This document shows positions 2,782-56,049 of a stretch of 64,000 nt of DNA, piece after piece. The notes below the pieces were generated by a model, which did not search any database, had not been told where the DNA came from, and was given only the letters and a program-made list of their open reading frames with translations. Position numbers and translations under genes: made by a program. The DNA comes from Dehalococcoidia bacterium (lineage in GTDB: Bacteria; Chloroflexota; Dehalococcoidia; Lucifugimonadales; UBA3495): contig OZ242013.1 of assembly GCA_965204805.1 (NCBI GenBank), positions 2,541,232-2,605,231 of the forward strand. Reading direction: 5' to 3'. Within the stretch, counting starts at the first letter, position 1. Every line of letters starts with the position of its first letter.

Positions 2782-3603
2782 TCACTGGCCGTTGGCCTCC
2801 ACTTCAGACAGGAATTGCAGCACTCGCTTGGCGTACTTTTCCGGCTCGTCGGCGTGGGGTTTGCACTCGCCCCACTGGCTGTTGGGGACGTGGCGGTGGG
2901 CCATCTCGGCCACGGCGCGGGGGTGGACGTCGTTGTAGCCGGGCATAATCATCGTTGGGACCCGGATGCTGCTCAGCATTTCCTTGGTGCTGCCGAGGGT
3001 GGGGAAGGGGCCGGCGAATAGGGCGTAGATGGTGTCGCGCATCACCTGAATGAACTCTTCGGTGTCCATCGCTTCGAGGTTCGCGCGGTAGTCGGCGTCG
3101 GTCTGGGCGATTTCTGGGCTGAAGGGGGCGAAGCGGTCGTCGGCGTCGAAGGCGTCTATCACTGCGCCTATGCCGTCGGCGGCGGCTATCTCCATGCTCT
3201 TGAACAGCTTGGAGGTCAGGTAGCCGTCGCAGATGACGCCACCGGCGATGTTGGAGGGGAAGATGGCCCGGACGCGCTCGGGGCGGCGGCAGGCGCACCC
3301 GAAGGATATGGCAGCGCCGAAGGAGCCGCCGCCGAGGTAAGCCTGCTCGATTCCCAGGGCGTCCAGCAGACCAAAGACATCCTCGCATACCATGTCCCAC
3401 GTCTGTACCACCATCGGACTGCGGGATTGGCCGCCGAAGCGCCGGTCGTAGACGATTACGCGGTGCTCTTGGGACAGGGCTTCGATCACCTCTCCGTAGC
3501 TGCTGGCCACGCCCTGTAGCCCGCCGGGCGAGAGGATGATGGGCGGGCCGCTGCCGGTCTCTTGGTAGTACAGTTCCGCGCCGTTTACTTTTGCTGTCGC
3601 CAT
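2782..3603 (-). CDS. alpha/beta-fold hydrolase
   Basis: NGAELYY..GSGPPIILSPGG, the nucleophile-elbow-like GGGSFG motif and the length are typical. The start is taken at MATAKV. Confidence 0.75.
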   Translation of the reverse strand: MATAKVNGAELYYQETGSGPPIILSPGGLQGVASSYGEVIEALSQEHRVIVYDRRFGGQSRSPMVVQTWDMVCEDVFGLLDALGIEQAYLGGGSFGAAISFGCACRRPERVRAIFPSNIAGGVICDGYLTSKLFKSMEIAAADGIGAVIDAFDADDRFAPFSPEIAQTDADYRANLEAMDTEEFIQVMRDTIYALFAGPFPTLGSTKEMLSSIRVPTMIMPGYNDVHPRAVAEMAHRHVPNSQWGECKPHADEPEKYAKRVLQFLSEVEANGQ

Positions 3604-3693
3604 TGTCCGGCCTCCTGTACGCATTTTCCCACGATTTCGGTTGAGGGGGATTATAGGCGTGTCGAAAGTGATAGGCAAAGGTTGACCGGATTT

Positions 3694-4833
3694 ATGGACG
3701 CAACTACCATCGCAGAATCAGCCAGCCGAGATAAGGACAGCTTTATGGCAATCGAGCAGTATGGACCAGCAGTAAGGGACGCCGAAGAAAAGATTCTTTC
3801 GTTCCTGCGGGTCTTCGAGTCCATCCAGGAAAATATGCGCGTGGAGAGGCTGGGCGAGTTTCAGGGACAGTTGCGCGAAGTCGCGCCGGATGGGTTCGCT
3901 GGCGTTATCGCCGGATTAGGGCAAGCCACGCCGCCGGAGCCGCTGCGCCCGTTTCACGACGCCTTTACTGCGGCGATTCGTCATTTGGGCAATACTTCCC
4001 AGACGTTTCTGAACGCCAGCGAAAGCAGCTACTCTCTTGCGGGTTTAGATATGCGACGGGCGCTGTGCCGGGGGCTGAACCTGCTGTACGGTATCCGGGC
4101 GGATACGCCAGTGCTGCAAGAATACTGGCTTCTACCGGAGGCGATGGCGGAGCGGGAGACACTGGAAACGCCCTCTCCGGACGCCGACGCTGCGGTAGGG
4201 GTGATACACCGGAGGCGGGCCGCGCCGCTGGCCGATTACTCGCTGTACGTGCCGGAGAGCTACACGCCGGGTCGGGAGTGGCCGCTGATTGTCTGCCTGC
4301 ACGGGGCTTACGGGCGCGGCGACCATTACATCTGGTCGTGGCTGCGCCCGGCCAAGAGCCGGGGCTATATGCTGCTGGCCCCCAAGTCGCTGGACGTTAC
4401 CTGGTCGATACTGCAACCGGAGCGGGACACCCAGTCGGTGGAGGCGATGCTGGAGGAGGTATGCGGGGAGTATGCGGTGGATCGGGGCCGGGTGTACCTG
4501 TCGGGGCTGTCGGACGGGGGGACGTTCACCTGGCTGCTGGGGCTGGGCCGGCCGGAGCTGTTCGCCGGAATCGCGCCGGTGGCCGGCGATTTTACGGGGA
4601 TGATGGACGATATGCTGCGGCGGAAGCAGGGGTTGGGGCTGCCCATCTGTATCGCGCACGGCGCCCACGACCACATCTTTGCGGTGGAGCCGATACGCAG
4701 GGGCCACGCTCTGCTGCAACGGTTGGGCTACAACGCGCGGTACGAGGAGCTGGCGGACTGGGGGCATTCGTACTGTTCGGGCGTGAACGAGCGGGTAGTT
4801 ATGCCGTGGTTCGAGGGGTTGTCTGAACTGTGA
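3694..4833 (+). CDS. esterase / phospholipase-carboxylesterase-type alpha/beta hydrolase with N-terminal extra domain
   Basis: LIVCLHGAYGRGD...YLSGLSDGGTF (GxSxG-like) ...AHGAHDHIF. The last codons and the stop lie inside repeat copy A. Confidence 0.65.
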   Translation: MDATTIAESASRDKDSFMAIEQYGPAVRDAEEKILSFLRVFESIQENMRVERLGEFQGQLREVAPDGFAGVIAGLGQATPPEPLRPFHDAFTAAIRHLGNTSQTFLNASESSYSLAGLDMRRALCRGLNLLYGIRADTPVLQEYWLLPEAMAERETLETPSPDADAAVGVIHRRRAAPLADYSLYVPESYTPGREWPLIVCLHGAYGRGDHYIWSWLRPAKSRGYMLLAPKSLDVTWSILQPERDTQSVEAMLEEVCGEYAVDRGRVYLSGLSDGGTFTWLLGLGRPELFAGIAPVAGDFTGMMDDMLRRKQGLGLPICIAHGAHDHIFAVEPIRRGHALLQRLGYNARYEELADWGHSYCSGVNERVVMPWFEGLSEL

Positions 4834-4914
4834 TTCGTGTGATTTCGATGATTGCGCTGAATTTCGCGCTACTGAATCAAGGCAATCCCTTAATCACAAA
4901 AATCACAGTTCAGA
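4821..4914. repeat. PAL-GATT palindromic intergenic repeat, copy A
   Basis: GTCTGAACTGTGATT...AATCACAGTTCAGA inverted termini, with GATT/AATC phased every 9 nt. Confidence 0.85.
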
Positions 4915-4982
4915 TTTTTGACATAACCTTGCCTCGCTGGTTAAATGCAACCCACTCCAACAGTAATTGAGACAGGTGAGCT

Positions 4983-6087: not shown

Positions 6088-8358
6088 TTGTCTATGACCT
6101 CTATGTACGAACCCGTGGCCAACACCGACCTGGCGCGGCTGCTGGACGGGATGACCGGGCCGGCGACGGTGGAGCCGGAGCCGCCGGACGTTTTCCCCGG
6201 CGGCAAGCGGCCAGACCTGCTGATTACCGCGCCGGGCCGCAGCCCGGTGGTCATCGAGGCGCGGCAGATGCCCGCGGCCAACCTGGAAGAGGACGCCGCG
6301 GCCCGTTTCGCCCTCAACGCCGTCATCGGCGGGCGGGAGTTGGAGGCGGTCATCGCGTTGCGCTATCCGGCAGGGATGACGGCCCTGAACGCCGACACGC
6401 CGCTGGAGTACGCGGCTCTTACCCGCAAGCCAGACGGCGGACTGGACCGTTTCCCTGAATCGGGCTGGCTGGAGGGCAAGGCGGCGGATTTGGCCGACCT
6501 GGTGCGGCTGGTATCGGTTCCACAGAGCGCCGTTGACGATGCGGCCAACTTCCTGCAAGAGGGCATTGACCACGGGGCGGAAATACTGGACGCGGAAGTG
6601 GACAAGCTGCGCCCCGGCATCGCCAGGGAGATTGCGGGCTTGCTGGGAATGGACAACGTGGCGCAGACCCGCCGGATGGCCTGCGCCATCATCGCCAACG
6701 CGATGGTGTTCCACGAGCGCATCGCCGGAATGCACGACAACATCCGCCCACTGCGGTTCGTCTGCGGGCCGGGCATCGCCAACCCGCAGGAGCAAACGCT
6801 GAACGCCTGGGCCGACATCCTGAAAATCAACTACTGGCCCATCTTCGCCATCGCCAAAGACATCCTGGAACAGTTGCCGCCCGACACGGCAAGGCGGTTG
6901 CTGGACATCCTGCGCGAGACCACCGGGAAGGTGAACGGAACCGGCGTCAACAACGCCCACGACCTCACCGGGCGGGTATTCCAGCGGCTGATTTCCGACC
7001 GCAAGTACCTGGCTACTTTCTACACGCTGCCGCCTTCCGCCGCGCTGCTGGCCCGGCTGGCCGTGGCGAAGTTGAAGGCCCCGGCTGCCGTGGATTCCGG
7101 CTTTCGCCGGAATGACGGGGAATTTGACTGGAGCGACGCAGGGGCTATCGGCGGGCTGCGGATTGGCGACTTCGCCTGCGGCACGGGGGCGCTGCTGTCG
7201 GCGGTGTACGAGCAGATAGCGGCCCGGCACGAACAGGCCGGGGGCGATGCGGCGGCCATCCATCCGGTGATGATGGAGGAGGTCCTGTACGGCTGCGACG
7301 TTATGCCGTCGGCCATTCACATCACCGGCTCCACCCTGTCGGGCATACAGCCCGAAACCGGCTTCGGCCAGTCGCGGCTCTACACCATGCCCTACGGACG
7401 GCAGGACGACGGCAGCGTGAAAATCGGCTCGCTGGAGCTGTTGCAGTCGTCGTCGGTGATGACACTGTTCAACACCAGCGACCCGGCGATGCGCACCGGC
7501 AGCGCGGGGGAGGAAACGGCGGCACAAGTCAACGTTGACGTACCTGATTGGGGCTTCGACCTGGTGATAATGAATCCGCCGTTTACCCGCGCCACTAATC
7601 ACGAAGGGTCTCACGCCGACGTGGTGAATCCCGCTTTCGCCGCATTCAACGCCAGCAAGTCGGATATGGACGATATGGGGAAGCGGCTGAACCAGCTTGG
7701 CAAGAACACCTGCTATCACGGCAACGCGGGCATCGCGTCGGCGTTTGCGGCATTGGGACACAGGAAGCTCAAGCCCGGCGGGGTGTTGGCGCTGGTGCTG
7801 CCCTTGTCCGCCGCCGCCGGACTGTCCTGGCAGGGTTTCCGGGATATGCTGGCGAAAGACTATACCGACTTGACGGTATTGAGCATCGCGGCTGACGGAA
7901 GGGATATGTCCTTTTCGTCGGATACTGGAATGGCGGAATGCCTGGTAATCGCTCGCAAGTGCAAGGCCGGTATCCCACCGGGGAAAAGGGCACGTTTCGC
8001 GTCTTTAAGACGGCGGCCTGCGGGTTTTGCTCCGGCGAAAGCGATAGCGGGGAATATCACGGACGCCGGTTATGTCCGCGAACTAGAAAACGGGCCTTAT
8101 GGCGGCACTCGCCTGACAATCGGCGATAAACTGGAAGGTGAAACGCTGAATGCTCCCGCAAGCGAGTCTTGGGGAAGCGTGCGGTTGTCCGATTACTCGC
8201 TGGCGCAAACTGCCTATGCGCTGTCCAATTCCCAATTGTGGCTGCCCGGCAATCCTGAATCTATTGCAGTGAAAGTTGCAGAGGTGGCGCAATCGGCAAA
8301 ATGGGACTGGTTGACCGCGACATTACTGGCCCGGCTCCGCGCGGCCCCTTCTCCCTGA
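6088..8358 (+). CDS. gamma-class N6-adenine DNA methyltransferase with N-terminal PD-(D/E)xK-like nuclease region (type IIG-like)
   Basis: RPDLLI...VVIEAR near the N-terminus. FYT(LPP) motif X, DFACGTGALL motif I and VIMNPPF motif IV are present. Confidence 0.65.
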   Translation: MSMTSMYEPVANTDLARLLDGMTGPATVEPEPPDVFPGGKRPDLLITAPGRSPVVIEARQMPAANLEEDAAARFALNAVIGGRELEAVIALRYPAGMTALNADTPLEYAALTRKPDGGLDRFPESGWLEGKAADLADLVRLVSVPQSAVDDAANFLQEGIDHGAEILDAEVDKLRPGIAREIAGLLGMDNVAQTRRMACAIIANAMVFHERIAGMHDNIRPLRFVCGPGIANPQEQTLNAWADILKINYWPIFAIAKDILEQLPPDTARRLLDILRETTGKVNGTGVNNAHDLTGRVFQRLISDRKYLATFYTLPPSAALLARLAVAKLKAPAAVDSGFRRNDGEFDWSDAGAIGGLRIGDFACGTGALLSAVYEQIAARHEQAGGDAAAIHPVMMEEVLYGCDVMPSAIHITGSTLSGIQPETGFGQSRLYTMPYGRQDDGSVKIGSLELLQSSSVMTLFNTSDPAMRTGSAGEETAAQVNVDVPDWGFDLVIMNPPFTRATNHEGSHADVVNPAFAAFNASKSDMDDMGKRLNQLGKNTCYHGNAGIASAFAALGHRKLKPGGVLALVLPLSAAAGLSWQGFRDMLAKDYTDLTVLSIAADGRDMSFSSDTGMAECLVIARKCKAGIPPGKRARFASLRRRPAGFAPAKAIAGNITDAGYVRELENGPYGGTRLTIGDKLEGETLNAPASESWGSVRLSDYSLAQTAYALSNSQLWLPGNPESIAVKVAEVAQSAKWDWLTATLLARLRAAPSP
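7092..7120. repeat. G-hairpin repeat (ATTCCGGC-TTTC-GCCGGAAT + GACGGGG) inside the methyltransferase ORF
   Basis: Same family as 25217, 49154-49278 and 62571. Translated in frame as ...SGFRRNDGE... Confidence 0.7.
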
Positions 8359-12223: not shown

Positions 12224-12267
12224 GGGGACTTTGGTCTCTTTGCTCTCTATGATTACTGATGCGGGGA

Positions 12268-12310
12268 CTTCACCCTCACCCTAGCCCTCTCCCTCAAGGG
12301 AGAGGGGATA
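12268..12310. repeat. H-hairpin repeat (ACCCTCACCCTA-leader + CCCTCTCCCTCAAGGGAGAGGG)
   Basis: Member of a family with at least 11 copies in the window. Confidence 0.8.
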
Positions 12311-18121: not shown

Positions 18122-18160
18122 ACACCCCCACCCTAACCCTCCCCCTGAGGGGGAGGGAAT
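18122..18160. repeat. H-hairpin repeat
   Basis: ACACCCCCACCCTAACCCTCCCCCTGAGGGGGAGGGAAT, identical to 34762-34800. Confidence 0.85.
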
Positions 18161-18300
18161 TTTGTCTGACAAATTAGCTCACCCGGCACCGTCTTCCCAT
18201 GAAAGCGGGAATTCAGAGGACGTTGCAAGCGGTGGTCTCACCCCCACCCCCTGCTTTCGCAAGGGCAGGCTCTAACCATCCACCAGAGGGAGAGGGAACG

Positions 18301-20131: not shown

Positions 20132-20224
20132 GTCTGAACTGTGATTTATGGGATTAAGAGATTACCTTGATTTTATATGCTGGAATCAAGGCAATCATAA
20201 AAATCCGACGAATCACAATTCAAT
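20132..20224. repeat. PAL-GATT palindromic intergenic repeat, copy B (more diverged)
   Basis: GTCTGAACTGTGATT...AATCACAATTCAAT. It supplies the stop codon of the 20213..21244 gene. Confidence 0.8.
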
Positions 20225-21244
20225 CTTGCGGGTTACCGCGCGGGAGCCCCAGCCGGGCAGGTAGACCGAGTGGGGGCCGCCTGCGCCGCCAGCTACGAAT
20301 ATGTGGATGCGGTCGGGGGCGCGGACTACCGGCACCATCTGGTCGTCGTCGTCCGGGTCTATGAAGCGGGGCCAGAAGTGCCCTCGGCGGGCGTCACCCT
20401 GGGGCGGGCCGCCGTGCTTCAGCATCCGCACCGGCTTGCGGGCGCGCTCGAACAGGAATTGCCGGATGTCCCGCTTGTTCCAGCCGTCGGCGTGGAGGAA
20501 TTTGGCGTGCTCCGGGCCGATGACGACGAAGGTGTCGCCCATGACGTACATCTGTACGTTGCCGAGGGGGCACATGGTGTCTGCCAGCACGGTCAGGAAG
20601 TCACGGGAGTTGGAAGCGTGGTACATGATGTTGTGCGGCGCCTCGGCAGGAAACACCGTTACAGTGCTGTCGGTGGCGGCGTAACCCATCTCAACGTGCA
20701 TCGGCATCCATGGGTTGGCTGTCTCGTCCTCTGCGACGCAGTAGGTGTAGGCCCCCGGGTGGCCGAAGGTGGCCTTGTTGGTTTCGCCTGGTATTGCGCC
20801 GCCCAGGTTGACCAGCGCCAGCTTGACGGCGCGGCCGATGGTGGCGTTGGCCCGCCAGCCCGAGCCGAAACAGTTATAGCCTCCGTTGATGTCAAGCTGC
20901 TGCACGGCGGGGCCGTTGACGATGAGCAGCGGGGTGTGGATGCCGGTGGAGCACATGACGCCGCGCAGGTTGAAGCGCTCGTCCATCATGGCCTGCAGGG
21001 CAGTGATGACGACGGGCATGTGCTCAGGTACGCAGCCGGCCATCACCGCGTTGACAGCGATGCGCTCCACGGTGGCCCGTCCCCCAAGGGGCGGCAGTTC
21101 GGCTATCAGCTCGTCTCCGCCGCGCCCGGTGTGGGCGACGAAGCGGCGCACCAGGTCCTCGGACGGCGGCACCACAGGTAGGCCGTCGGTCCAGCCGGTC
21201 TCGAACATCAACTCAATGGCGTCGGTAAGTTCGGTTGAAAGCAT
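20213..21244 (-). CDS. conserved protein of unknown function (GWTDGLPVVPPS N-terminal motif)
   Basis: 343 aa with coding-like composition. I recognise no named family. Confidence 0.6.
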   Translation of the reverse strand: MLSTELTDAIELMFETGWTDGLPVVPPSEDLVRRFVAHTGRGGDELIAELPPLGGRATVERIAVNAVMAGCVPEHMPVVITALQAMMDERFNLRGVMCSTGIHTPLLIVNGPAVQQLDINGGYNCFGSGWRANATIGRAVKLALVNLGGAIPGETNKATFGHPGAYTYCVAEDETANPWMPMHVEMGYAATDSTVTVFPAEAPHNIMYHASNSRDFLTVLADTMCPLGNVQMYVMGDTFVVIGPEHAKFLHADGWNKRDIRQFLFERARKPVRMLKHGGPPQGDARRGHFWPRFIDPDDDDQMVPVVRAPDRIHIFVAGGAGGPHSVYLPGWGSRAVTRKIEL

Positions 21245-21288: not shown

Positions 21289-22455
21289 TTACTTGCCCTT
21301 GAACTCGGGCATCACTTCCTTTGCGAACCACTCCAGTTGCTCGGTGATCACGCTTTGGGGGGTTCCTACGGGATGGCTTACGCCCACACGGTCTAGCCCG
21401 GGGTACTGCTTCTCGACCGCCTTTAGCTGCTCGATGACCCGGTCCGGCGGGCCGGCCAGGAATGCGCCGCCTTCTACCGCGCCCTGGATGGTGGGCAGAC
21501 CGGCGGTGGGGGCGCGGCTTGGGTCGCCGATGTCGCGGATTTGCTCATCGGACAGACGGCGGGTAAGGCGCAGCGGGCCGAACATCTTGAGGTTTTCCTC
21601 GAAGAAGCCCTGGGCCTCCTCCATAGCCTGCTCCACGCTGGGGGCGAGGTGGAAATGGAAGCCGACGCTGAGGTTGGTTCCGGGCTCGGGTTCCTCGTGG
21701 CCGGCACGAATCATGGCGTCGCGGTAGCCGTAGATGACGTTGTCCATGGCTCCGCCCTCGGCCACGCCGCCGCCAATGATGCCCTTGATGTTGTGCTTGA
21801 CCATGAAATCCAGCGCCCGCTGGGTGCCGCCCTGGATGGGCTGCCAGCACTCGACCGGCAGCTTGGTCGGGCGCGGCACGAGGGTCAATTCCTTGAGGGT
21901 GTAGCCGCGATAAGGCACCTCGGGCGGCAGGGTGTAGTACTTGCCCTGGTGCGACCATGACTCTTCATTGAACGCCTTGAAGATGATTTCGACCTGCTCC
22001 TCGAACATCTCGCGGTTGGCGTCCTGGTCCTGGAGCGGCGAGCCAAAGCTCTCCACCTCGCGGGTGTGGTAGCCCCGGCCTACGCCGAAGATGACGCGGC
22101 CTCCGGTCAGGATGTCGGCGGTGGCGTAGTCCTCGGCCAGCCGCAGCGGATGCCACATGGGGGCGATGTTGAAGCCGCAGCCGAATTTGAGGTTCTTGGT
22201 GACGTGGGCTAGGTGGACGTTGAGCATGATGAGGTTGGGGATGCACTCGTAACCTTCCGGCTGGAAGTGGTGCTCGGCCATCCACATGGTGTCGTAACCG
22301 TTCTCGTCCATGGTCTTGGCGATGGCCTCGGACTTGGGGAAGACCGTGGACAGGTGGTCGTTGTCAAACAGGCGGTCGTTGACCGCGATGCCGCCGTAGC
22401 CGATGTTGGTCATGTCAACGTGGCCGGCGAAGAGGCTGTCGAATTTGGTGATCAT
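21289..22455 (-). CDS. LLM-class flavin-dependent monooxygenase/oxidoreductase
   Basis: Luciferase-like motifs (MAEHHFQPEGY..., VIFGVGRGY). Confidence 0.8.
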   Translation of the reverse strand: MITKFDSLFAGHVDMTNIGYGGIAVNDRLFDNDHLSTVFPKSEAIAKTMDENGYDTMWMAEHHFQPEGYECIPNLIMLNVHLAHVTKNLKFGCGFNIAPMWHPLRLAEDYATADILTGGRVIFGVGRGYHTREVESFGSPLQDQDANREMFEEQVEIIFKAFNEESWSHQGKYYTLPPEVPYRGYTLKELTLVPRPTKLPVECWQPIQGGTQRALDFMVKHNIKGIIGGGVAEGGAMDNVIYGYRDAMIRAGHEEPEPGTNLSVGFHFHLAPSVEQAMEEAQGFFEENLKMFGPLRLTRRLSDEQIRDIGDPSRAPTAGLPTIQGAVEGGAFLAGPPDRVIEQLKAVEKQYPGLDRVGVSHPVGTPQSVITEQLEWFAKEVMPEFKGK

Positions 22456-22480: not shown

Positions 22481-22576
22481 GTCTGAACTGTGATTTGTGA
22501 GATTTCCGTGATTGCCCTGATTTTCTTGCTCCCGAATCATGGCAATCCCTATAATCACAAAAATCACAGTTCAGAC
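22481..22576. repeat. PAL-GATT palindromic intergenic repeat, copy C (best preserved)
   Basis: GATT at element positions 12, 21, 30 and 39, mirrored by AATC x4. Termini are GTCTGAAC/GTTCAGAC. Confidence 0.9.
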
Positions 22577-23739
22577 TATTCGTAGGGCTGGAGTTGGATT
22601 TCGTGTAGGGCGGGGATGACTTCGCGGCCCAGCAGTTCCACGGAGCGCATTACGTCGGCGTGGTTCATGTCGCCTTCATTGCCGTAGATGTGGAGGTAGC
22701 CGGGGTTCAGACGCTCGATGATGTTGCTGAGCTTGCGGGTTACGGTGTCGGGGCTGCCGACGATTACGTTGTCCACGTCCTGGAGTTCCTGGTAGGTCAT
22801 GCGGCGTCCGAAGCCCCCGGCGCCGGGTAGCTGGCGCTGGATGCGCACCGCCTCGCGGGACTGGTAGCCGGGCGGGTCGTTGTGCTCCACCGGGCCGCGG
22901 TTGCGATGGTTTTCCGTCCACAGGAAGGTTTCGCCGATCCGCTGTGCCTCTTCGTCGGTGTCGGCGCAGAACACTCGCAGCAGGTAGCCGAAATGCTCCG
23001 GGCCGGGGGTAAAGCCGACTTCCTTGGCAGTGTCTATGTAGACACCCTTCAACCCTTCGGTGTAGTCCAGCAGCGAGCCGAGGTTCATGTAGGGGTGCTG
23101 GTGGCGGGCCGCCCAGACAACGCTCTCGGCGCTGGACAGGCCGGGGAACCAGATGGGCGGGTGCGGGTCCTGCACCGGCAGCACCCAGGGGTTCACGGCG
23201 CGGTAGTGGTAGAACTGGCCCTCGTATCGGAAGGGGCCGGGCTGCGTCCAGCATTTGATGATGAGGTCGTGGGCTTCCTCGAAGCGGGCGCGGTTCTCGG
23301 CGGGGATGATGCCCCCGGCCAGGCTCTCGACTGCGGTGCCGCGCACGAAGCCGGAGATGATGCGCCCGTTGGAGAAGCAGTCCAGCATGGCGATTTCCTC
23401 GGCCATGCGGATGGGATCGTTGACCGCGATGACGTTGCCGAGGATGGCAATCTTGGTGTTCTTGGTTATCTTGGAAATGACGGCCGCGTCGAGGTTGACG
23501 GCGGGCTTCATGCACCAGTAGGAGGCGTGATGCTCGTTGGACATGATGCCGTCGAAGCCCACCTCGTCGGCCAGCGCGTACTGCTCGTGGTATTGGTTGT
23601 AGAGTTCGTGGGCCTTCTCCGGGTCGAAGAAGGTGTTGGGGAACCCGAGCCTGCCGGAGTCGTACTGCTCCAGGTCGGCGTCGGTTACGTGGGCGTAGGG
23701 CTGTTCGGAGAACCAGAAAACCTCAATAGTGTCTTTCAT
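22576..23739 (-). CDS. LLM-class flavin-dependent monooxygenase/oxidoreductase
   Basis: Luciferase-like motifs (SNEHHASYW..., GRIISGFVRG). Confidence 0.8.
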   Translation of the reverse strand: MKDTIEVFWFSEQPYAHVTDADLEQYDSGRLGFPNTFFDPEKAHELYNQYHEQYALADEVGFDGIMSNEHHASYWCMKPAVNLDAAVISKITKNTKIAILGNVIAVNDPIRMAEEIAMLDCFSNGRIISGFVRGTAVESLAGGIIPAENRARFEEAHDLIIKCWTQPGPFRYEGQFYHYRAVNPWVLPVQDPHPPIWFPGLSSAESVVWAARHQHPYMNLGSLLDYTEGLKGVYIDTAKEVGFTPGPEHFGYLLRVFCADTDEEAQRIGETFLWTENHRNRGPVEHNDPPGYQSREAVRIQRQLPGAGGFGRRMTYQELQDVDNVIVGSPDTVTRKLSNIIERLNPGYLHIYGNEGDMNHADVMRSVELLGREVIPALHEIQLQPYE

Positions 23740-25216: not shown

Positions 25217-25246
25217 CGTCATTCCTGCCTTTGCAGGAATGACGGG
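25217..25246. repeat. G-hairpin repeat (GTCATTCCTGC-CTTT-GCAGGAATGAC)
   Basis: 11-bp perfect stem between the two MFS genes. Confidence 0.75.
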
Positions 25247-27085: not shown

Positions 27086-27188
27086 GTCTGAACTGTGATT
27101 TGTTTGATTTGAGGATTTTTGTGATTTTTCTCCTGAGCATCACCAGTAATCCTGAAAATCATTTAATCAAATAAATCACAGTTCAGAC
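27086..27188. repeat. PAL-GATT palindromic intergenic repeat, copy D
   Basis: Lies in the divergent promoter region between the cupin and SDR genes, with the same termini. Confidence 0.85.
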
Positions 27189-27231: not shown

Positions 27232-27981
27232 ATGACGCGACTGGAAGGACGGACGGCCCTGGTCACCGGGGCGGGACGAAACATCGGGCGGGCCATTGCC
27301 CTGAAGCTGGCGGGCGAGGGGGCCAACGTGGTGGTCAATGCCCGCTCCAACCGCGATGAGGCGGAGGCGGTGGCCGAGGAGGCGCGGGGCCTGGGCGTGG
27401 AGTCCATGGCGGCGCTGGCCGACGTGGCCGACCACGAGCAGGTGTCGCGGATGTTCGCCGCCGCCGCCGAGCGGTTCGGGCAGGTGGACGTGCTGGTCAG
27501 CAACGCCGCCATCCGCCCGCACAAGCCCTTCACCGAGCTGGCGCTGGCCGACTGGGAGCGGGTGCGCGGCGTGGTGCTGGACGGCGCGTTCTACTGCGCC
27601 CGCAACGCCCTGCCGGCGATGCAGGCCAACGGCTTCGGGCGCATCGTGTTCCTCACCGGCGACGGGGCCTGGAACGGCTCGGCGGAGCGTTCCCACGTGT
27701 CGGCGGCCAAGATGGGCATCGTGGGCCTGGCCCGGGGGCTGGCCTCGGAGTTCGCGCCCCACAACGTGCGGGTCAACGTGGTCTCGCCGGGACGCATAGA
27801 CACCAGCCGCGACCTGTCGTGGTATCCGGGGCAGAACATGGCGGACACGGCGGAGATTCCCCTGGGTCGCCTGGGCCACGTGGACGACATCGCCGCCGCC
27901 TGCGTGTTCCTGGCCACAGACGACTGCGGCTTCATCACCGGGCAGACGCTGCACGTGAACGGGGGGACGGCGTATTTCTGA
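27232..27981 (+). CDS. SDR-family oxidoreductase (FabG-like)
   Basis: TGAGRNIGRAIA, NAAI and S...YxxxK-like (SAAKMG) motifs. C-terminus is ITGQTLHVNGG. Confidence 0.9.
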   Translation: MTRLEGRTALVTGAGRNIGRAIALKLAGEGANVVVNARSNRDEAEAVAEEARGLGVESMAALADVADHEQVSRMFAAAAERFGQVDVLVSNAAIRPHKPFTELALADWERVRGVVLDGAFYCARNALPAMQANGFGRIVFLTGDGAWNGSAERSHVSAAKMGIVGLARGLASEFAPHNVRVNVVSPGRIDTSRDLSWYPGQNMADTAEIPLGRLGHVDDIAAACVFLATDDCGFITGQTLHVNGGTAYF

Positions 27982-28043
27982 GGGGCGTCCCAGCATACCT
28001 GCCGTTGCTATACTGTCCTCAAACTTCACGGGCGTGGCTTGAA

Positions 28044-28661: not shown

Positions 28662-28752
28662 GCCGCCTGCGTGTTCCTGGCCACGGACGACTGCGGCTTC
28701 ATCACCGGGCAGACCATCCACGTGAACGGGGGAACGGCGTACTTCTGAGGGG
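28662..28752 (+). pseudogene. orphan duplicate of the SDR gene 3' end (last ~28 codons plus stop)
   Basis: About 90 bp matching 27895-27985. It encodes AACVFLATDDCGFITGQTIHVNGGTAYF* against ...QTLHVNGGTAYF*. Confidence 0.75.
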
Positions 28753-31859: not shown

Positions 31860-31931
31860 ACCGGCCAGAGGGCGGTTGCGAACTCCAGCAGCGAGAGGAT
31901 TGGGGCATAGGCGCGTTTTTTGATGCCACGA

Positions 31932-31966
31932 TCTCACCCTAACCCTCTCCCTCAAGGGAACGAGGA
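31932..31966. repeat. H-hairpin repeat (degenerate right arm)
   Basis: CACCCTAACCCTCTCCCTCAAGGGAACGAGG. Confidence 0.6.
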
Positions 31967-33383: not shown

Positions 33384-33627
33384 GGGCGCGTACCTTCCAG
33401 ATAGATTACCGCCCCGTATCAAGTACGGGGTGGCGTTCCTTCACGGGAATGACGGGGAATGACGGCAGGGTAATTGAGACAAATACTAGCTCAGAGAGCG
33501 GCGGCGCGCCACATTTTATCACGGCGGCACGGAGCGGCGGCATGGTCAAAGGCCCGCGCCCCTTGACAACAGAAGAGGTTAGGCCAAAATATCCAAAGAG
33601 CAATCGACCCATAGAGGAGTCTTTAAT

Positions 33628-34703: not shown

Positions 34704-34800
34704 TCCTCTCCCTCTTGAGGGGAGGCCGGGATGGGGGTGAACCGTCGAGGAAAAGCGGGCCACACCCCCACCCTAACCCTCCCCCTGAGGGGGAGGGAAT
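34704..34800. repeat. two H-hairpin repeats (34704-34724 and 34761-34800)
   Basis: CCTCTCCCTCTTGAGGGGAGG, and a copy identical to 18122-18160. Confidence 0.8.
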
Positions 34801-37282: not shown

Positions 37283-37338
37283 CGTCTTGCCGTCCTTGCG
37301 TTTCGGTGATTGTGCCTTTCTGAAAGAACCAAGAGGAC

Positions 37339-37375
37339 GCCCTCACCCTGACCCGCTCCCTCCGGGATAGGGGAT
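37339..37375. repeat. H-hairpin repeat (diverged)
   Basis: GCCCTCACCCTGACCCGCTCCCTCCGGGATAGGGGAT. Confidence 0.55.
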
Positions 37376-43660: not shown

Positions 43661-43775
43661 TCCCCTCTCCCTCTGGGGGAGGGCAAGGGTGGGGGCGTTT
43701 CCCTCGGACGGAAAGTTTGCTCATACCAGGATTTCACCCTCACCCCAACCCTCTCCCTCAAGGGAGAGGGAGAAT
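43661..43775. repeat. two H-hairpin repeats in opposite orientation (43661-43696, 43733-43775)
   Basis: CCCCTCTCCCTCTGGGGGAGGGCAAGGGTGGGGG and CACCCTCACCCCAACCCTCTCCCTCAAGGGAGAGGGAGAAT. Confidence 0.8.
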
Positions 43776-44699: not shown

Positions 44700-44731
44700 G
44701 GCAGGAAACATGGCGCGGTCTTACCCAGCGA

Positions 44732-44760
44732 ACCACCCTCTCCCTCAAGGGAGAGGGAAT
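44732..44760. repeat. H-hairpin repeat
   Basis: ACCACCCTCTCCCTCAAGGGAGAGGGAAT. Confidence 0.8.
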
Positions 44761-47128: not shown

Positions 47129-49120
47129 GTGATAAACCCAAGAACTGTTTTCTCAAAACTCTGGCTTCCCATTGTGTTGGCGCTCTCGCTGGCGCTGATA
47201 GTGGCCTGCGGCTCCGCGGAAGAGCCAGAGGCTACGCAAGCGCCGGCGGCTACGGCAGCGCCGGCGGCCACTGCGGCTCCCGCTGCAACCGCTGCTCCCG
47301 CAGCTACCACGGCGCCAGCAGCCACCGCGGCCCCCGCAGCCACCACAGCTCCCGCAGCTGGCGCGCAAGCCGCGGCTACCCCGGTGCCCCCCACCTCGAC
47401 ACCCAGGCCCGCGCCCACCAGGGCGGCTCCGGCGGAACACGTGCCGACCGGCGTGATGAACTACGGAGTCAAGGAGACTGGCGTATTCGAGGGACATCCC
47501 AGGTTCATGTCCAGCCCGCGCGTCCAGTATTCCGCCGTGAGCTTCGGCGAGTCTATGGTCGCCATCCAGCAGGACCTGTCTCCCGGGCCATTGCTGGCCG
47601 CAGAGTGGGACATATCCGACAACGGACAGTTCTGGACCTTCAAGGTCCGGGATGACGTGGAGTTCCATCACAAGTGCGGCGCGTCAGGCACCGAGAGCTG
47701 CGGCAACCTGACCATCCACGACGTGCTGTGGAGCTACAAGGAATGGCACGAAGGTTCCCTTAACGCCCGCGCCGGTATCATCGGCAACTTCTGGGTCGGC
47801 AAGGCCGGCGGCTCCCAGACGATAGACGATGATTACACCGTGCTGATCGACACCGGCGGGCCCTGGCTCCGTGAGCGGGCCTTCGAGTTCATGCGCCACC
47901 TGGGCGGTGTCAGCACCACCATCGTGAGTATGCAGCAGACCCGGGACAAGTTCGAAAACGCCGGGCACAACTGGGACGACCGTTATAGTGAACCCGGCGT
48001 GGCAACCGAGGAATACGAGGCCGCCGCGAAAGAGGCCAGCAAGGACATCTCCGCCACCGGCCCGTGGCAGGTGGATTCCCACGACAGCGGGCGCGTCTGG
48101 CGCTTCCGGGCCATGGAGAACCACTGGCGGCAGACTCCGTATTTCGCCGAATTCAATATGTGGTCCATCCCCGAGGAGGCCACGCGGATCGCAGGTTTCC
48201 AGGCGGGTGAACTGGACATCATGGAGATGTCTTTCGACTCCCTGGACGCCGTCCAGGCGGTGGAGGGCACTGAGATCATCGCTTGGCCCAACGCCGGACA
48301 GGCCGGCCTGAACATCTACGGCCAGACCTATGGCGTGGACAAAGAAGGCAATCCCTACGAACACCTGGACTGCAACAACGCCTGGGTGTCGTGCGACGAA
48401 GACCCCACTTCAGAGGAATGGCTGAACGCGGTCAAGGTCAAGAAGGCCATGGCCATCGCCATTAACCGTCAGGAGATAGTGGATACTCTGCTCTCCGGCT
48501 TTGGTCAGCCCCTCTACATGAGGGACTGGATGGGGCACGAAGAGAAGGCTGACCCCCGTTGGGTCCACGAGTACGACCCTGAAATGGCGAAGCAACTGCT
48601 GGCGGAGGCCGGGTACGGGCCCGACAACAAGTTCACCATCACCCTGGTTCCGGCCATCCGCGGGGCGCCCGCCGAGGTTGAAGCGTGTCAAGCGGTGGCT
48701 GGGTACTGGGAGGAAGTCGGCATCAATGTTGACCTCCAGAGCATTCCCTACGCCACCATCAGGCCGGAGCTGATTACCCGCACGTTCCAGGGCGCGACCT
48801 GCCACACCGTCAGCCAGCGCCTTACACCGGCCATTGGCGCCAGCAACTACGAGAATAACTCTACCTTCAGCTACGGCACGGAACACCCGTGGATGCAGGA
48901 GAACATTGTCGACCTGATTGAAGAAACCGATCCGGTGCTGGTTGCCGAGAAGGAGCGCAAGGTCTACGGCTGGTTCTATGACAACGTTATGGCCTTCGCC
49001 CTCTACTCCCACGACGGCATCTGGCCCGTTGGAGCGAGGCTCGACCCCGAGTGGCGGCCCATTGACTTCAGTGAAGTCCGGTCTCCCTCTGGCTTCGAGT
49101 ACATCAAGCACCGGCAATAA
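47129..49120 (+). CDS. ABC transporter substrate-binding lipoprotein, family 5 (peptide/nickel type)
   Basis: GTG start after AAAGGAGAGG, lipobox LIVACGS and an Ala/Pro/Thr-rich linker, followed by an SBP_bac_5-like body. Confidence 0.8.
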   Translation: MINPRTVFSKLWLPIVLALSLALIVACGSAEEPEATQAPAATAAPAATAAPAATAAPAATTAPAATAAPAATTAPAAGAQAAATPVPPTSTPRPAPTRAAPAEHVPTGVMNYGVKETGVFEGHPRFMSSPRVQYSAVSFGESMVAIQQDLSPGPLLAAEWDISDNGQFWTFKVRDDVEFHHKCGASGTESCGNLTIHDVLWSYKEWHEGSLNARAGIIGNFWVGKAGGSQTIDDDYTVLIDTGGPWLRERAFEFMRHLGGVSTTIVSMQQTRDKFENAGHNWDDRYSEPGVATEEYEAAAKEASKDISATGPWQVDSHDSGRVWRFRAMENHWRQTPYFAEFNMWSIPEEATRIAGFQAGELDIMEMSFDSLDAVQAVEGTEIIAWPNAGQAGLNIYGQTYGVDKEGNPYEHLDCNNAWVSCDEDPTSEEWLNAVKVKKAMAIAINRQEIVDTLLSGFGQPLYMRDWMGHEEKADPRWVHEYDPEMAKQLLAEAGYGPDNKFTITLVPAIRGAPAEVEACQAVAGYWEEVGINVDLQSIPYATIRPELITRTFQGATCHTVSQRLTPAIGASNYENNSTFSYGTEHPWMQENIVDLIEETDPVLVAEKERKVYGWFYDNVMAFALYSHDGIWPVGARLDPEWRPIDFSEVRSPSGFEYIKHRQ

Positions 49121-49153: not shown

Positions 49154-49278
49154 ATTCGGGAATGACGGGGAAGCTGACCATAGAGCTTCCCCGTCGTTCC
49201 CGCGAAGGCGGGAATCCATAAGCAGGCGTACCAACGTATTTGTGAGACTTTGGATTCCCGCCTTCGCGGGAATGACGC
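49154..49278. repeat. cluster of G-hairpin repeats
   Basis: GGGAATGACGGGGAAGC...GCTTCCCCGTCGTTCCCGCGAAGGCGGGAATCC and GGATTCCCGCCTTCGCGGGAATGACGC. Confidence 0.8.
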
Positions 49279-53863: not shown

Positions 53864-56049
53864 ATGACTGGTGATATAGTGGACTTGTCCGGCAGTGAGG
53901 CTGGAGCCGGGCTTGGCTGCTGCCCTAGCCCTGGCTCAAACCTGGCCTGGGGAGTTGCCCGCTATGCGCCCTTTTTCACCCCCCCCCCCCCGACTTTCGC
54001 TGGGATTCTTCTTCTTGCGCTGATTCTTGCCGGATTGCTGGCAGCCTGCGGCTCGGATGCGCCGCAGGCCACAGAACAGCCCACTGCTGTCGCGCCTCCG
54101 GTGACCGCCGCCACATCACCGTCGCCGGTGCCAACGGCAACACCCACGCCGACGCCCCGGCCTGCGGCAACGTCCGCGCCTGAACCAACCGCCGCCCCCG
54201 CTCCTACACCGTCGCCCACTCCCGCGCCAACCCCTACCCCTACGCCAACGGCCACTCCAGCTCCTACGGCTACCCCTGCTCCGACACTCACGCCGACACC
54301 TTCACCAACAGCTACCCCTGCTCCGACGCCAACCGCCATGCCCACGCCCACGCAGACACCAGTGCCGACACCTTCACCGACAACTACTCCGGCCCCGACG
54401 CCAACGGCCACGCCTGCGCCAACGACCACACCCACGCCCACGCAGACACCGGCGCCGACATCCACCCATATCCCCAAGGAGCAGCGCGATGCGAACGATT
54501 ACATCGTCTGGAAAATCGGTAGTGGGGTTAGCCCCGGGGCGGAGGCCGAGGCCAGGGCCGTCGTCTATGCCATGCATGACTTTGCCGTCAGCAACGGTCT
54601 GCCCCGAATCGATGGCCCTATAACCATCTTCCTCTACCACAACCTCGATGCCTTGGAGGCTGAATTTGAGGCATCTACCGGGCTTCAGTCTGAGAATTGG
54701 TTCTGGCCGGGTTTTAGGGATGGGAGGACTCCCATAACCTCCAGAAGAGATTTCATTGCAGTGAACACGTCGGCAAGCTATTACCAGGGTGTTTCGCGAG
54801 ATGAACGGGCAAGGCTATTGGCTGAAGGACTGTTTGATGCTCTGCGCCGCGCGTTGACCGGAATATGGGAGGGCGCTCCATGGGACGCTGTAAGCCGTGA
54901 GGGTCCTGTGTGGTTGTGGCATGGCGCCAGCCGTTTTTTTGCTTGGCAGTCGACCAAGACGCTGGGGCAGGAGTCATGCGACCTGTCCAGGAACCGCTTT
55001 GCCACATTACCGCAATCAGCAGACGAGACACTCAGCGAGTTGGAAACCTTGGCGGGCTTCGATTATCAGGGGGGCACTCCGCGTACGGGTTTCTCGCGGT
55101 GGAGTTGCTTTCGGAGCGGGCAGGCAAGGAGTCCATATTCGCCTATTTTGCATCGCTCAAGACCGGAGGCACCTGGCAGGATGCGTTCGAGCGGGCTTTC
55201 GGAATGACCGTGGATGAGTTCTACCAACTGTTCGAGGAGCGCCGTACGGCCGGATTTCGCCAGCCACGTTGCCCGACGCTGCCACCGCTGGTCACCTTGC
55301 CGGGTTCTCCGGAGTATGTGAAATGGGAGATTGGTTCCGGCGTCCCGCAGGAGTATGTCCATGACTCGGTCGAGGGTGTCCGGCTGATGCACGAATATGC
55401 CGAGTCTCTGGGTATGCCTGAGATAGAAACGGAGTTCACTGCCCACCTGTACTACGACCAGATTGAGCTGATAGCCGCCTACCAAGCCGCAACAGGAGGC
55501 GATGGGAATTGGGTTCCTGAGGGATCTAACGCTGTAGCTTACGGCTCTGGCTTTTTCACGAATACTCTGCGTTGGGAAGAGCGAAAGACATCCTCCGACG
55601 ATCGGAAGAAGATTTCCGCGCATGAGTTGTTTCATGTCTTCCAGTCTCACGTGTCGTTGAATCGCTCACGAGAGGCGACGTGGCTGTCGGAAGGTACCGC
55701 AGAGTTTCTTGCTTTCAGGGCTTTGGACGCGGTAGATGTGGTCGACTATGCTGTAGAACGAAGTTCGCGTAGGGGATTCGTAGAGATCGCGCGACGTGTA
55801 GAAAGACCTCTGAAAGAGATGGAAGAAGGGCATAAAGCCATCCAGTATGACTATTCCCTACTGGCGGCGGAACTCTTGGCGTCACGGACCGGAGAAAAAT
55901 CGCTCTTCCGATTTCTAGAGATCCAGAGTACTAGTGGGACCTGGCAGGAGGCGTTCCAAACCGCCTTCGGGATGACCGTAGAGGAGTTCTACGAGTTGTT
56001 CGAGGAACACCGCGCCGCGGGATTCCCCGAGGTGGAGATACCCAAGTGA
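53864..56049 (+). pseudogene. two-module metalloprotease-like lipoprotein, split by a frameshift at a G6 run (55069-55074)
   Basis: Lipobox LLAACGS and a long PT-rich linker. Module A has a degenerate AEGLFD and module B an intact HELFH. Both modules end ...W(Q)(D/E)AF..AFGMTV(D/E)EFY.LFEE(R/H)R(T/A)AGF. Confidence 0.55.

What the first reader, a model, noticed from the sequence alone, without database searches (positions are those of the whole stretch)
22481..22576. PAL-GATT: ~95-105 bp palindromic intergenic repeat with strictly 9-nt phased GATT submotifs (4 copies)
The copies are at 4821-4914, 20132-20224, 22481-22576 and 27086-27188. The termini GTCTGAACTGTGATT ... AATCACAGTTCAGAC are inverted repeats.

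Inside the left arm, GATT recurs every 9 nt. In copy C it sits at element positions 12, 21, 30 and 39. The right arm mirrors this with AATC x4 at the same 9-nt spacing. Copy A keeps the phase, with one unit mutated to GAATT. The central 10-20 nt is variable.

The copies sit only in short intergenic gaps next to oxidoreductase genes. In copies A and B the arm GAA(C/T)TGTGA provides the last codons and the stop of the upstream gene (...GLSEL*, ...KIEL*). Copy D occupies a divergent promoter region.

The long hairpin potential fits a REP/MITE-like element, an mRNA 3' stabiliser or a terminator. The phased short motif looks more like an array of protein-binding sites. I do not recognise it as a described element.
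Basis: seen in the sequence. Interest (0 to 1): 0.7.

Follow-up and report, generated by a model that had tools for sequence, protein, structure and literature searches.

The report
Gene-less copies of a nuclease-gene cassette
The four ~95-bp palindromes are real, and they match the two arms of a ~465-bp unit found in at least eleven bacterial phyla that carries a single small uncharacterised nuclease gene, a unit that looks mobile and that I could not find described anywhere.

Summary
Four copies carry the tips GTCTGAACTGTGATT / AATCACAGTTCAGAC (8 tip hits against 0.76 expected by chance). Their arms hold TGATT units every 9 nt, though copies B and D have one 8-nt step.

The element is not local. 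These span Dehalococcoidia, Bacteroidota, Desulfobacterota, Thiotrichaceae, Nitrospirae, Armatimonadota, Leptospiraceae, Cyanobacteria, Patescibacteria, Ignavibacteria and Latescibacterota.

The same arms flank a ~130-aa GxxExxY protein gene (PF13366, PD-(D/E)XK nuclease fold, function unknown). Its start codon lies in the innermost ATGATT unit and its stop in the outer tip. Of 80 loci chosen only by this protein, about 58 had arms the model detected, and most of the rest had variant arms visible by eye.

The window copies are therefore gene-less, MITE-like derivatives. Spacers show no covariation and the two strands fold equally well, so the palindromy reflects repeated motifs, probably protein-binding sites, not a selected RNA hairpin. 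There is no fixed target duplication, no Rfam match and no literature match.

That the nuclease moves the element is an inference. No such gene lies in the window or in 224 kb of related Dehalococcoidia DNA.

The parts
4821..4915 (.). Copy A. Left arm has GATT at element positions 12, 21 and 30, then GAATT. Right tip is AATCACAGTTCAGAT. Lies between two plus-strand genes.
4821..4833 (+). Left tip of copy A supplies the last codons and the stop of the upstream esterase-like ORF 3562-4833 (..G L S E L *, TGA at 4831-4833).
   Evidence: The same 13-nt overlap occurs in 13 copies elsewhere.
20132..20225 (.). Copy B. Left arm spacing is 9-8-9. Right tip is degenerate (AATCACAATTCAATC). Lies between two minus-strand genes. 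Present at the orthologous site in two related Dehalococcoidia genomes.
20213..20225 (-). Right tip of copy B, read on the minus strand, supplies ..K I E L * of ORF 20213-21244 (-).
22481..22576 (.). Copy C, the reported one. Both arms have 9-9-9 spacing and both tips are perfect. Lies between two minus-strand luciferase-like monooxygenase genes. The stop codon of ORF 22576-23739 (-) overlaps the tip by 1 nt. The start of gene 21289-22455 (-) is 26 nt beyond the other tip.
27086..27188 (.). Copy D. Both arms have 9-8-9 spacing and both tips are perfect. Lies in the divergent gap between the cupin gene (-, probable start 27030) and the SDR gene (+, ATG 27232). A TATAAT conserved in relative L078 lies at about 27069, just upstream.

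Best explanation
The four window elements are gene-less, non-autonomous derivatives of a compact cassette of about 462-473 bp.

Structure of the full cassette (shown):
- A left arm: the tip GTCTGAAC followed by about four TGATT units spaced 8-9 nt apart.
- One gene for a ~125-130-aa GxxExxY protein with a PD-(D/E)XK nuclease fold.
- A mirror-image right arm.
- The gene's start codon is the innermost ATGATT unit of the left arm. Its C-terminal tail and its stop codon (in the ..AATCATAGTTCAGAC variant tip) are encoded by the right arm.
- The left tip carries stop codons in two reading frames (GTC TGA and G TCT GAA CTG TGA). In many cassettes the downstream host ATG follows the right tip within 1-4 nt.
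- The cassette sits co-directionally between genes of an operon.
- In the window only the two arms and a 10-20-nt variable centre remain.

Inferred:
- The stop codons in the tip and the closely following start codon should leave translation of the neighbouring genes intact.
- The phased TGATT units and the tip are the cis-acting ends, bound as an inverted array by the cassette's own nuclease.
- That nuclease, or a relative supplied in trans, moves both full and gene-less copies by a mechanism that leaves no fixed target duplication.
- In place, a gene-less copy is probably a near-neutral passenger that puts an imperfect ~40-bp stem into the operon transcript.
For: The family is real and widespread:
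By my arithmetic about 2 hits are expected by chance in 596 Gb.
- Bases that the pattern did not require are also conserved: the outer GTCT at 72-95%, and the second GATT at +9 in 72-78% of arms.
- The hosts span at least 11 phyla.

Link to the gene:
- Four hairpin-selected loci (L006, L014, L023, L044) carry a gene hard against the arms. It matches TIGR04256 at 1.2e-40 and PF13366 at 3.6e-39.
- Protein termini are arm-encoded. MITMINEQ corresponds to ATGATTNNNATGATT, and ..KSxESxKSNKS(QFRQ) corresponds to AAATCA..AATAAATCACAGTTCAGACAA.
- L113 1475-1936 is a clean 462-bp left arm-gene-right arm unit.
- All five proteins looked up by exact sequence are arm-flanked.
- In 80 loci selected only by protein, the arm HMM hits beside about 58 genes. 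Most of the 22 misses have variant arms by eye, such as GTCTGAAC-CTTT/CGAT/CCAC-GATT.
- Relatives of 48-63% identity also have arm-encoded tails or variant arms (L158; P0165 ..NPGSDK and P0243 ..KSADSD).

The protein looks like an active enzyme:
- The residues that align with the PD-(D/E)XK catalytic motif (E35, D74, E84, K86) are invariant.

Horizontal spread:
- The Saprospiraceae and Leptospiraceae proteins are 85% identical.
- More than 8000 close relatives exist, and the top 120 clusters are 87-92% identical to the query.
- The family comprises 14,549 clusters at 50% identity.
- A 2012 survey lists PF13366 as function unknown with 'multiple transfers' (PMC3424549).

Binding-site array rather than a selected hairpin.

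The arms are constrained:
- Between orthologous copies of B, the arms are 41/42 and 37/42 identical while the loop is 5/10.

Turnover among relatives:
- Copy C is replaced, and site D is occupied by a different family member, in L078.
Against: - No GxxExxY gene lies in the window, or in 224 kb of Dehalococcoidia loci that hold 74 arms. A mobilising enzyme in this lineage is therefore unshown.
- No binding, cleavage or transposition by GxxExxY has been shown anywhere. PDB sequence search, PADLOC and the literature give nothing.
- The structure model was too poor to use (pLDDT 48.6).
- There is no consistent target-site duplication. Most units have none, and four have duplications of 21-40 bp. 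No known transposition chemistry fits this.
- The direction of derivation is not established. The hairpin could have lost the gene, or an older hairpin could have captured it.
- Copy B has stayed at one site in three genomes that are about 85% identical, so movement is at best rare here.
Confidence: 0.6

Rival explanations
1. The arms are the mobile or recombining entity, but another enzyme that I did not identify moves them. GxxExxY would then be a passenger, for example a defence or addiction gene that rides in the loop. Alternatively the cassette spreads mainly by hitch-hiking in restriction-modification operons.
For: - GxxExxY units sit overwhelmingly in R-M operons alongside other typical island genes. 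Flank counts are Methylase_S 19, RhuM 9, HSDR_N 8, HsdM_N 6 and DUF1016 4.
- Dehalococcoidia carry many hairpins, with no such gene seen in the DNA sampled.
- No transposase activity is known for this family.
Against: - In the hairpin-selected loci GxxExxY was the only gene found lying between a pair of arms. A generic cassette boundary would be expected to carry varied cargo.
- Arm variants track protein subfamilies.
- No recombinase or transposase family recurs near the 112 loci.
Confidence: 0.25
2. The hairpins act mainly at the RNA level for the host. They would be an intercistronic stem that directs RNase III processing, stabilises the transcript or couples translation, kept by selection at each site.
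For: - The fold is strong.
- Copies lie between co-directional genes, directly after stop codons and 18-69 nt before start codons.
- Orthologous copy B has conserved arms.
Against: - No compensatory changes are seen.
- The two strands are equally stable: sense is more stable in 10 units, antisense in 12, p = 0.47.
- Copies also occur between convergent genes (26) and divergent genes (10).
- There is no Rfam family.
- The identical 15-nt tip across 11 phyla is not what a structure-defined RNA element shows.
Confidence: 0.07
3. The repeats are operator arrays for a host transcription factor that co-regulates the neighbouring oxidoreductase genes.
For: - The motifs are short, phased and in inverted orientation.
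- Copy D lies just downstream of a conserved TATAAT.
- All four neighbours in the window are redox or hydrolase genes.
Against: - The same element, with the same tip, sits beside unrelated genes in distant phyla.
- Three of the four window copies lie inside operons, after stop codons.
- The element flanks and partly encodes a mobile nuclease gene.
Confidence: 0.03
4. The elements are attC-like recombination sites of an integron-like gene-cassette system.
For: - They are imperfect palindromes of 80-105 bp at the 3' ends of genes.
- The tips GTCTGAAC / GTTCAGAC resemble the attC core sites RYYYAAC / GTTRRRY apart from one extra base (the consensus is from my own knowledge).
- In Symbiothrix L041, toxin-antitoxin pairs lie between copies.
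Against: - The tips do not fit the attC consensus.
- The sequence, not the structure, is what is conserved.
- No integrase recurs near the loci.
- Copies are scattered among housekeeping operons, not arrayed.
- Rfam, searched down to E = 10, returned no attC-like match.
Confidence: 0.03

Closest known systems
Bacterial MITEs (for example Correia/CREE of Neisseria, ERIC, RUP, Nezha)
   Same: Short, gene-less, many copies, terminal inverted repeats, intergenic and co-transcribed with operons. They share their ends with a longer gene-carrying form.
   Different: - No fixed-length target duplication.
- The arms are built from 8-9-nt phased subrepeats.
- The 15-nt tip is identical across at least 11 phyla, whereas MITEs are usually lineage-specific.
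- The partner gene is not a known transposase family.
REP/BIME elements with RAYT (TnpA-REP, an IS200/IS605-like Y1 transposase)
   Same: A single small gene flanked by the same palindromic repeats that are dispersed gene-less through the genome. No target duplication. Preference for gene 3' ends.
   Different: - REPs are 20-40 nt with a GTAG-type head and are species-specific. This element is about 90 nt with phased TGATT units.
- The flanked protein is PF13366 (PD-(D/E)XK fold), not an HUH/Y1 enzyme.
Eukaryotic Foldback (FB) transposons
   Same: Long inverted arms made of short tandem subrepeats. Many copies consist of arms only, and a minority carry coding sequence in the centre.
   Different: They are eukaryotic, far larger, and leave a fixed target duplication. 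They share no sequence or protein with this element. The comparison rests on my own knowledge, not on a test made here.
Free-standing homing endonuclease genes, including the PD-(D/E)XK enzyme I-Ssp6803I, and the PD-(D/E)XK Rpn/YhgA-like 'putative transposases' (PDDEXK_2)
   Same: A small selfish nuclease gene that spreads horizontally and inserts between genes. There is precedent for PD-(D/E)XK enzymes promoting DNA movement (PDDEXK_2 is listed as a putative transposase in PMC3424549).
   Different: Homing genes lack inverted-repeat arms, do not leave gene-less derivatives, and stay at one homologous site. This element sits at many unrelated sites.
Integron attC sites and gene cassettes
   Same: An imperfect palindrome of similar size at the 3' end of a gene, with a similar-looking 7-8-nt core at each end.
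   Different: The core differs by one base. Sequence rather than structure is conserved. There is no integrase and no array.
Rickettsia palindromic elements (RPE)
   Same: Palindromic elements of about 100 bp that are compatible with translation of the host genes they enter.
   Different: RPEs insert in frame inside genes and are translated as part of the host protein. This element ends the upstream gene with its own stop codon. No nuclease partner is known for RPEs (my own knowledge).

Membership tests
GxxExxY-cassette arms (family defined here) | Outer tip GTCTGAAC, followed after 3-4 nt by GATT | tested here: met
   Seven of the eight window tips match with at most 1 mismatch. The right tip of copy B has 3 mismatches.
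GxxExxY-cassette arms (family defined here) | About four TGATT units per arm at 8-9-nt spacing, with the arms in inverted orientation | tested here: met
   The arm HMM gives E 4e-12 to 1e-4 for all eight window arms.
GxxExxY-cassette arms (family defined here) | The same arms flank and partly encode a PF13366 gene elsewhere | tested here: met
   TGTGATT-type arms, as in the window, flank the gene in L006 and L023 and encode the ..NKSQFRQ tail of P0063.
GxxExxY-cassette arms (family defined here) | A PF13366 gene present in the same genome as the gene-less copies | tested here: inconclusive
   None in the window or in 224 kb of Dehalococcoidia loci. Whole genomes could not be scanned.
MITE | Short, non-coding, terminal inverted repeats, multiple dispersed copies | tested here: met
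MITE | Target-site duplication of fixed length | tested here: not met
   None at the four window copies. Elsewhere there is mostly none, and occasionally 21-40 bp.
MITE | Ends shared with an autonomous IS that encodes a recognised transposase | tested here: inconclusive
   The ends are shared with a gene-carrying unit, but its protein has no known transposase function.
REP / RAYT | 20-40-nt palindrome with a conserved GTAG-type head, plus a Y1/HUH transposase flanked by REPs | tested here: not met
   The element is about 95 nt with phased TGATT units. The flanked gene is PF13366. No Y1-like cluster was found among 1789 flanking ORFs.
Integron attC | Core sites RYYYAAC / GTTRRRY, structure conserved but sequence not, and an IntI integrase or cassette array | tested here: not met
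   The tips carry one extra base. Sequence is conserved with no covariation. No integrase recurs. Rfam gives no match.
Intrinsic terminator | GC-rich stem followed by a T-run | tested here: not met
   No terminator-like site at any copy. The stems are AT-rich, and only copy A is followed by a run of Ts.
Any Rfam family | Score at or above the family's gathering threshold | tested here: not met
   Only a tRNA elsewhere in the window. At E up to 10, only miRNA-precursor noise at 13-21 bits against thresholds of 38-200.
Structured cis-regulatory RNA | Compensatory base changes, and strand-specific G-U tolerance | tested here: not met
   82.0% of cells pair against 83.4% in shuffles, and 486 of 500 shuffles are at least as high. 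Sense against antisense is 10 to 12, p = 0.47.

The most novel reading that the evidence does not exclude
This is a previously undescribed class of prokaryotic mobile element: a ~465-bp foldback cassette whose only gene is a ~125-aa PD-(D/E)XK nuclease. The nuclease recognises 8-9-bp-phased TGATT arrays in its own arms and moves the cassette, and thousands of gene-less 90-bp derivatives, without a fixed target duplication. It inserts at operon junctions and is built not to disturb translation of the neighbouring genes. It has crossed between at least eleven phyla.
Probability: 0.4. Interest if true: 0.9.

Novelty: new variant of a known kind. Interest (0 to 1): 0.78.

Why it matters
- It would give a first functional context to GxxExxY/PF13366. 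This is a very large protein family (14,549 clusters at 50% identity) that has been listed as 'function unknown' since at least 2012.
- It would add a PD-(D/E)XK-fold enzyme with phased-repeat ends to the short list of machineries that generate MITE/REP-like repeats.
- The cassette layout is unusual. The tip carries stop codons in two frames, the arms carry start codons, and the neighbour's start codon follows within 1-4 nt. This offers a testable model of how a selfish gene can live inside operons, especially restriction-modification operons, without harming them.
- In practice, these repeats will seed spurious ORF extensions. Arm-encoded tails such as KSxESxKS and NKSQFRQ are already present in protein databases. 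They may also break assemblies in Dehalococcoidia, Bacteroidota and Thiomargarita genomes.
- A 15-nt tip shared across phyla is a convenient marker of horizontal transfer.

Tried and rejected
- Rfam at gathering scores and at E up to 10: nothing relevant.
- Paper library, searched for tip strings, GxxExxY, PF13366, PDDEXK with MITE, and hsdS/hsdR with inverted repeats: no description.
- Autonomous partner sought as tip-to-tip pairs more than 140 nt apart in the 112 loci: only the GxxExxY cases, solo arms and nested tips.
- Terminator or promoter reading: no terminator-like site at any copy. One weak sigma-70-like match lies inside copy B.
- RNA-structure reading: no covariation and no strand asymmetry.
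- Conventional target-site duplication: absent.
- Idea that L137 shows an in-frame insertion splitting one gene: rejected. The two flanking ORFs each start with their own methyltransferase N-terminal motif, so they are two separate genes.
- Phage or plasmid vector: no hairpin copies in 2.9 M viral contigs, one diverged cassette in a viral contig, and one weak plasmid hit.
- Structure prediction of the protein: pLDDT 48.6 from a shallow alignment, so unusable. No fold search was run.
- PDB sequence search and PADLOC: no hits. PHROGs: one weak hit to an unknown-function family (E 0.007).
- Clean empty site in relatives: not obtained. At site C, L078 holds a different repeat and keeps ..AGAC. At site D it holds a diverged family member.

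Full report
**1. The observation**

The four copies are at 4821-4915 (A), 20132-20225 (B), 22481-22576 (C) and 27086-27188 (D).
- The tip GTCTGAACTGTGATT, with up to 3 mismatches, occurs 8 times against 0.76 expected.
- Three GATT at 9-nt spacing, with up to 1 mismatch, occur 8 times against 0.06 expected.
- An HMM built from 254 arms found elsewhere detects exactly these eight arms in the window and nothing else.
- Each copy folds far better than its shuffles, with z-scores of -6.2 to -8.9.

Three corrections apply.
- B and D have a 9-8-9 step pattern, not strict 9-9-9.
- The KIEL* stop of copy B belongs to a minus-strand gene.
- The oxidoreductase neighbourhood reflects what this window happens to encode. 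It is not a property of the element.

**2. Setting in the window**

A, B and C each lie between two co-directional genes.
- The tip supplies the stop of the upstream gene in A (13-nt overlap, ..GLSEL*) and in B (..KIEL*).
- In C the stop codon abuts the tip, with a 1-nt overlap.
- The next gene starts 69, 18 and 26 nt beyond the other tip.

D lies between a cupin gene on the minus strand and an SDR gene on the plus strand. No copy has a terminator-like site.

**3. The family outside the window**

I scanned one genome per species (596 Gb) for GAACTGTGATT-N55-85-AATCACAGTTC. By my arithmetic about 2 hits are expected by chance.

Features that the pattern did not require are conserved too.
- The outer GTCT is present at 72-95% per position.
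- The next GATT is at +9 in 72-78% of arms.
- Further units lie at +17/18 and +26/27.

The hosts are Dehalococcoidia/Chloroflexi (about 32 loci, including at least 10 loci on the 4.3-Mb chromosome OZ242027.1), many Bacteroidota (including cultured Spirosoma oryzae DSM 28354), Desulfobacterota, Thiotrichaceae/Thiomargarita, Nitrospirae, Chthonomonadaceae, Leptospiraceae, Chamaesiphon, Patescibacteria, Ignavibacteria and Latescibacterota.

Across the 137 copies every gene-orientation context occurs. Convergent, co-directional and divergent pairs number 26, 44 and 10. In 30 cases the tip supplies the upstream ORF's stop codon, with overlaps of 1, 6 or 13 nt. No copy was found in 2.9 M viral contigs.

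**4. The partner gene**

I clustered 1789 flanking ORFs. One small protein recurred hard against the arms in four loci from different lineages: L006, L014, L023 and L044. It is a GxxExxY protein, matching TIGR04256 at 1.2e-40 and PF13366 PDDEXK_3 at 3.6e-39.

A homologue search returned more than 8000 proteins at E < 1e-10, which is the scoring cap. The top 120 clusters are all 87-92% identical to the query.

The protein termini are translations of the arms.
- N-terminal MITMINEQ corresponds to ATGATT-NNN-ATGATT.
- The C-terminal ..KSxESxKSNKS(QFRQ) corresponds to AAATCA..GAATCA..AATAAATCACAGTTCAGACAA.

L113 1475-1936 shows the clean unit of 462 bp. The left arm is GTCTGAACTATGATT-TTTGTGATT-AAATGATT-ACTATGATT, then the ORF, then the right arm ending ..AAATCATAGTTCAGAC.

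Two mixed forms also occur: left arm-gene-[complete hairpin] and [complete hairpin]-gene-right arm.

**5. An unbiased test of the link**

All five proteins looked up by exact sequence were arm-flanked.

I then fetched 80 metagenome loci chosen only by protein similarity.
- The arm HMM hit beside about 58 of the genes.
- Most of the 22 misses have variant arms visible by eye, with GTCTGAAC followed by CTTT, CGAT or CCAC and then GATT.
- I therefore estimate that about 90% or more of this subfamily is arm-flanked.
- Simple units measure 462-473 bp.

More distant relatives show the same thing.
- L158 is 63% identical and has GTCTGAATCAGGATT-type arms.
- Representatives of 48-58% identity have tails such as ..NPQNPGSDK and ..KSAKSADSD, which are arm translations ending in the tip.

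The residues aligning with the PD-(D/E)XK catalytic motif are invariant. The family is large: 14,549 clusters at 50% identity have E of 1e-3 or better. It has no solved structure by sequence search, no defence-system model and no described function.

**6. Where the cassettes sit**

About 85% of flanking ORFs are co-directional with the cassette gene. Flank domains are dominated by restriction-modification genes and typical island genes, alongside housekeeping genes:

| Pfam family | Flanking ORFs (of 129) |
|---|---|
| Methylase_S | 19 |
| RhuM | 9 |
| HSDR_N | 8 |
| HsdM_N | 6 |
| N6_Mtase | 5 |
| DUF1016 | 4 |
| ResIII | 4 |

The host's downstream ATG often follows the right tip within 1-4 nt, as in ..TAGTTCAGACAATG. 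In L137 the called downstream gene starts at an ATG inside the arm.

From this layout I infer that the cassette does not disturb its neighbours: it ends the upstream gene, translates its own, and hands over to the next.

**7. Hairpin or binding-site array?**

I took 18 copies that share one register and tested a full-arm pairing.
- It gives 82.0% paired cells against 83.4% in column shuffles. 486 of 500 shuffles are at least as high.
- Spacer columns are mostly unpaired, in 9 to 13 of the 18 sequences.
- Within-copy complementarity of spacers is only slightly above between-copy complementarity.
- In 22 oriented full units the sense strand is more stable in 10 and the antisense in 12 (p = 0.47).

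The palindromy therefore comes from the same conserved 5-nt unit repeated in both arms. This is what an inverted array of protein-binding sites looks like, and not what a structure-selected RNA looks like.

The arms are nonetheless constrained. Orthologous copy B has arms 41/42 and 37/42 identical to L078, but a loop only 5/10 identical. The flanking genes are about 88% identical.

**8. Mobility evidence and its limits**

For movement:
- Dispersal to unrelated sites in many phyla.
- 85% protein identity between Saprospiraceae and Leptospiraceae.
- Nested tips and tandem arrays.
- Differences among three syntenic Dehalococcoidia genomes. Copy C is replaced by another repeat in L078, and site D holds a diverged family member there.

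Limits:
- No clean empty site was recovered.
- Target duplications are absent in most cases, but are 21-40 bp in four (L113, L006, L159, L180). No known chemistry explains this.
- No GxxExxY gene lies in the window or in 224 kb of Dehalococcoidia loci.

**9. Conclusion**

Shown:
- The window elements belong to a very widespread arm family.
- The same arms flank and partly encode a conserved PD-(D/E)XK-fold gene.
- The gene-less form is a MITE-like derivative or relative of that cassette.

Inferred:
- The nuclease binds the phased TGATT units and moves both forms.
- In place, the gene-less copies are near-neutral passengers.

Neither Rfam nor the searchable literature describes this element. 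I file it as a new variant of the MITE/REP kind. There is a substantial chance that the cassette is a mobile-element class of its own.

Noticed in passing
window 12253-12308, 18122-18160, 18261-18299, 31911-31966, 34745-34800, 37337-37375, 43717-43772, 44704-44757: A second, GC-rich repeat family with the core CACCCTAACCCTCTCCCTCAAGGGAGAGGG (a short hairpin). The copies at 18122 and 34762 are identical over 39 nt. In relative L078 this family occupies the site where the window has PAL-GATT copy C.
   Followed up: partly
window 7092-7117, 25219-25244, 33429-33454, 49192-49277, 62571-62596: A third repeat family, GGATTCCCGCCTTCGCGGGAATGACG. It includes an inverted pair 49192-49218 / 49251-49277 that is 96% complementary.
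   Followed up: no
window 27895-27985 and 28662-28752: A 91-nt stretch covering the 3' end and stop of the SDR gene next to copy D is repeated 767 nt downstream at 93% identity (D9). It could be a second SDR gene end or a remnant.
   Followed up: no
window 47222-47383 and 54122-54463: Ala/Pro/Thr-rich coding repeats with a 9-nt period, likely low-complexity linkers in two large ORFs (D1/D2).
   Followed up: no
L082 ~4215-4440, L097 ~300-400, L109 5786-5926: Another palindromic element, AGGAGTTACGCAGTTGG..CCAACTGCGTAACTCCT, sits nested at the same position inside the left arm of PAL-GATT copies in several Dehalococcoidia genomes. Sometimes it carries the GC-rich repeat inside it in turn.
   Followed up: partly
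L058 11-661 and L020 49-352, 6736-7094 (Thiotrichaceae MAG): Head-to-tail arrays of near-identical copies. L058 has 7 copies with period 95 and a constant 14-nt spacer. L020 has period 107, plus a run of left tips every 66 nt.
   Followed up: partly
L041 3253-4996 (Candidatus Symbiothrix dinenymphae): Two PIN-type toxin/antitoxin gene pairs on the opposite strand lie between successive element copies, giving a cassette-array look.
   Followed up: no
L113 1441-1474 and 1937-1970; L006 ~573-612 and ~1185-1227; L159; L180: Long direct duplications (34, about 40, 21 and 25 bp) of the upstream gene's 3' end abut both tips of some cassettes. Most cassettes have none.
   Followed up: partly
L137 1640-1705: The called start codon of the downstream Eco57I-like methyltransferase gene lies inside the element, and its first 22 codons are arm sequence (..NQKNHSSD|VNYNPDV..).
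   Followed up: partly
proteins P0147, P0156, P0173, P0185 and others: Some GxxExxY relatives are about 260-270 aa with two matched stretches, so tandem two-domain versions of the nuclease exist.
   Followed up: no
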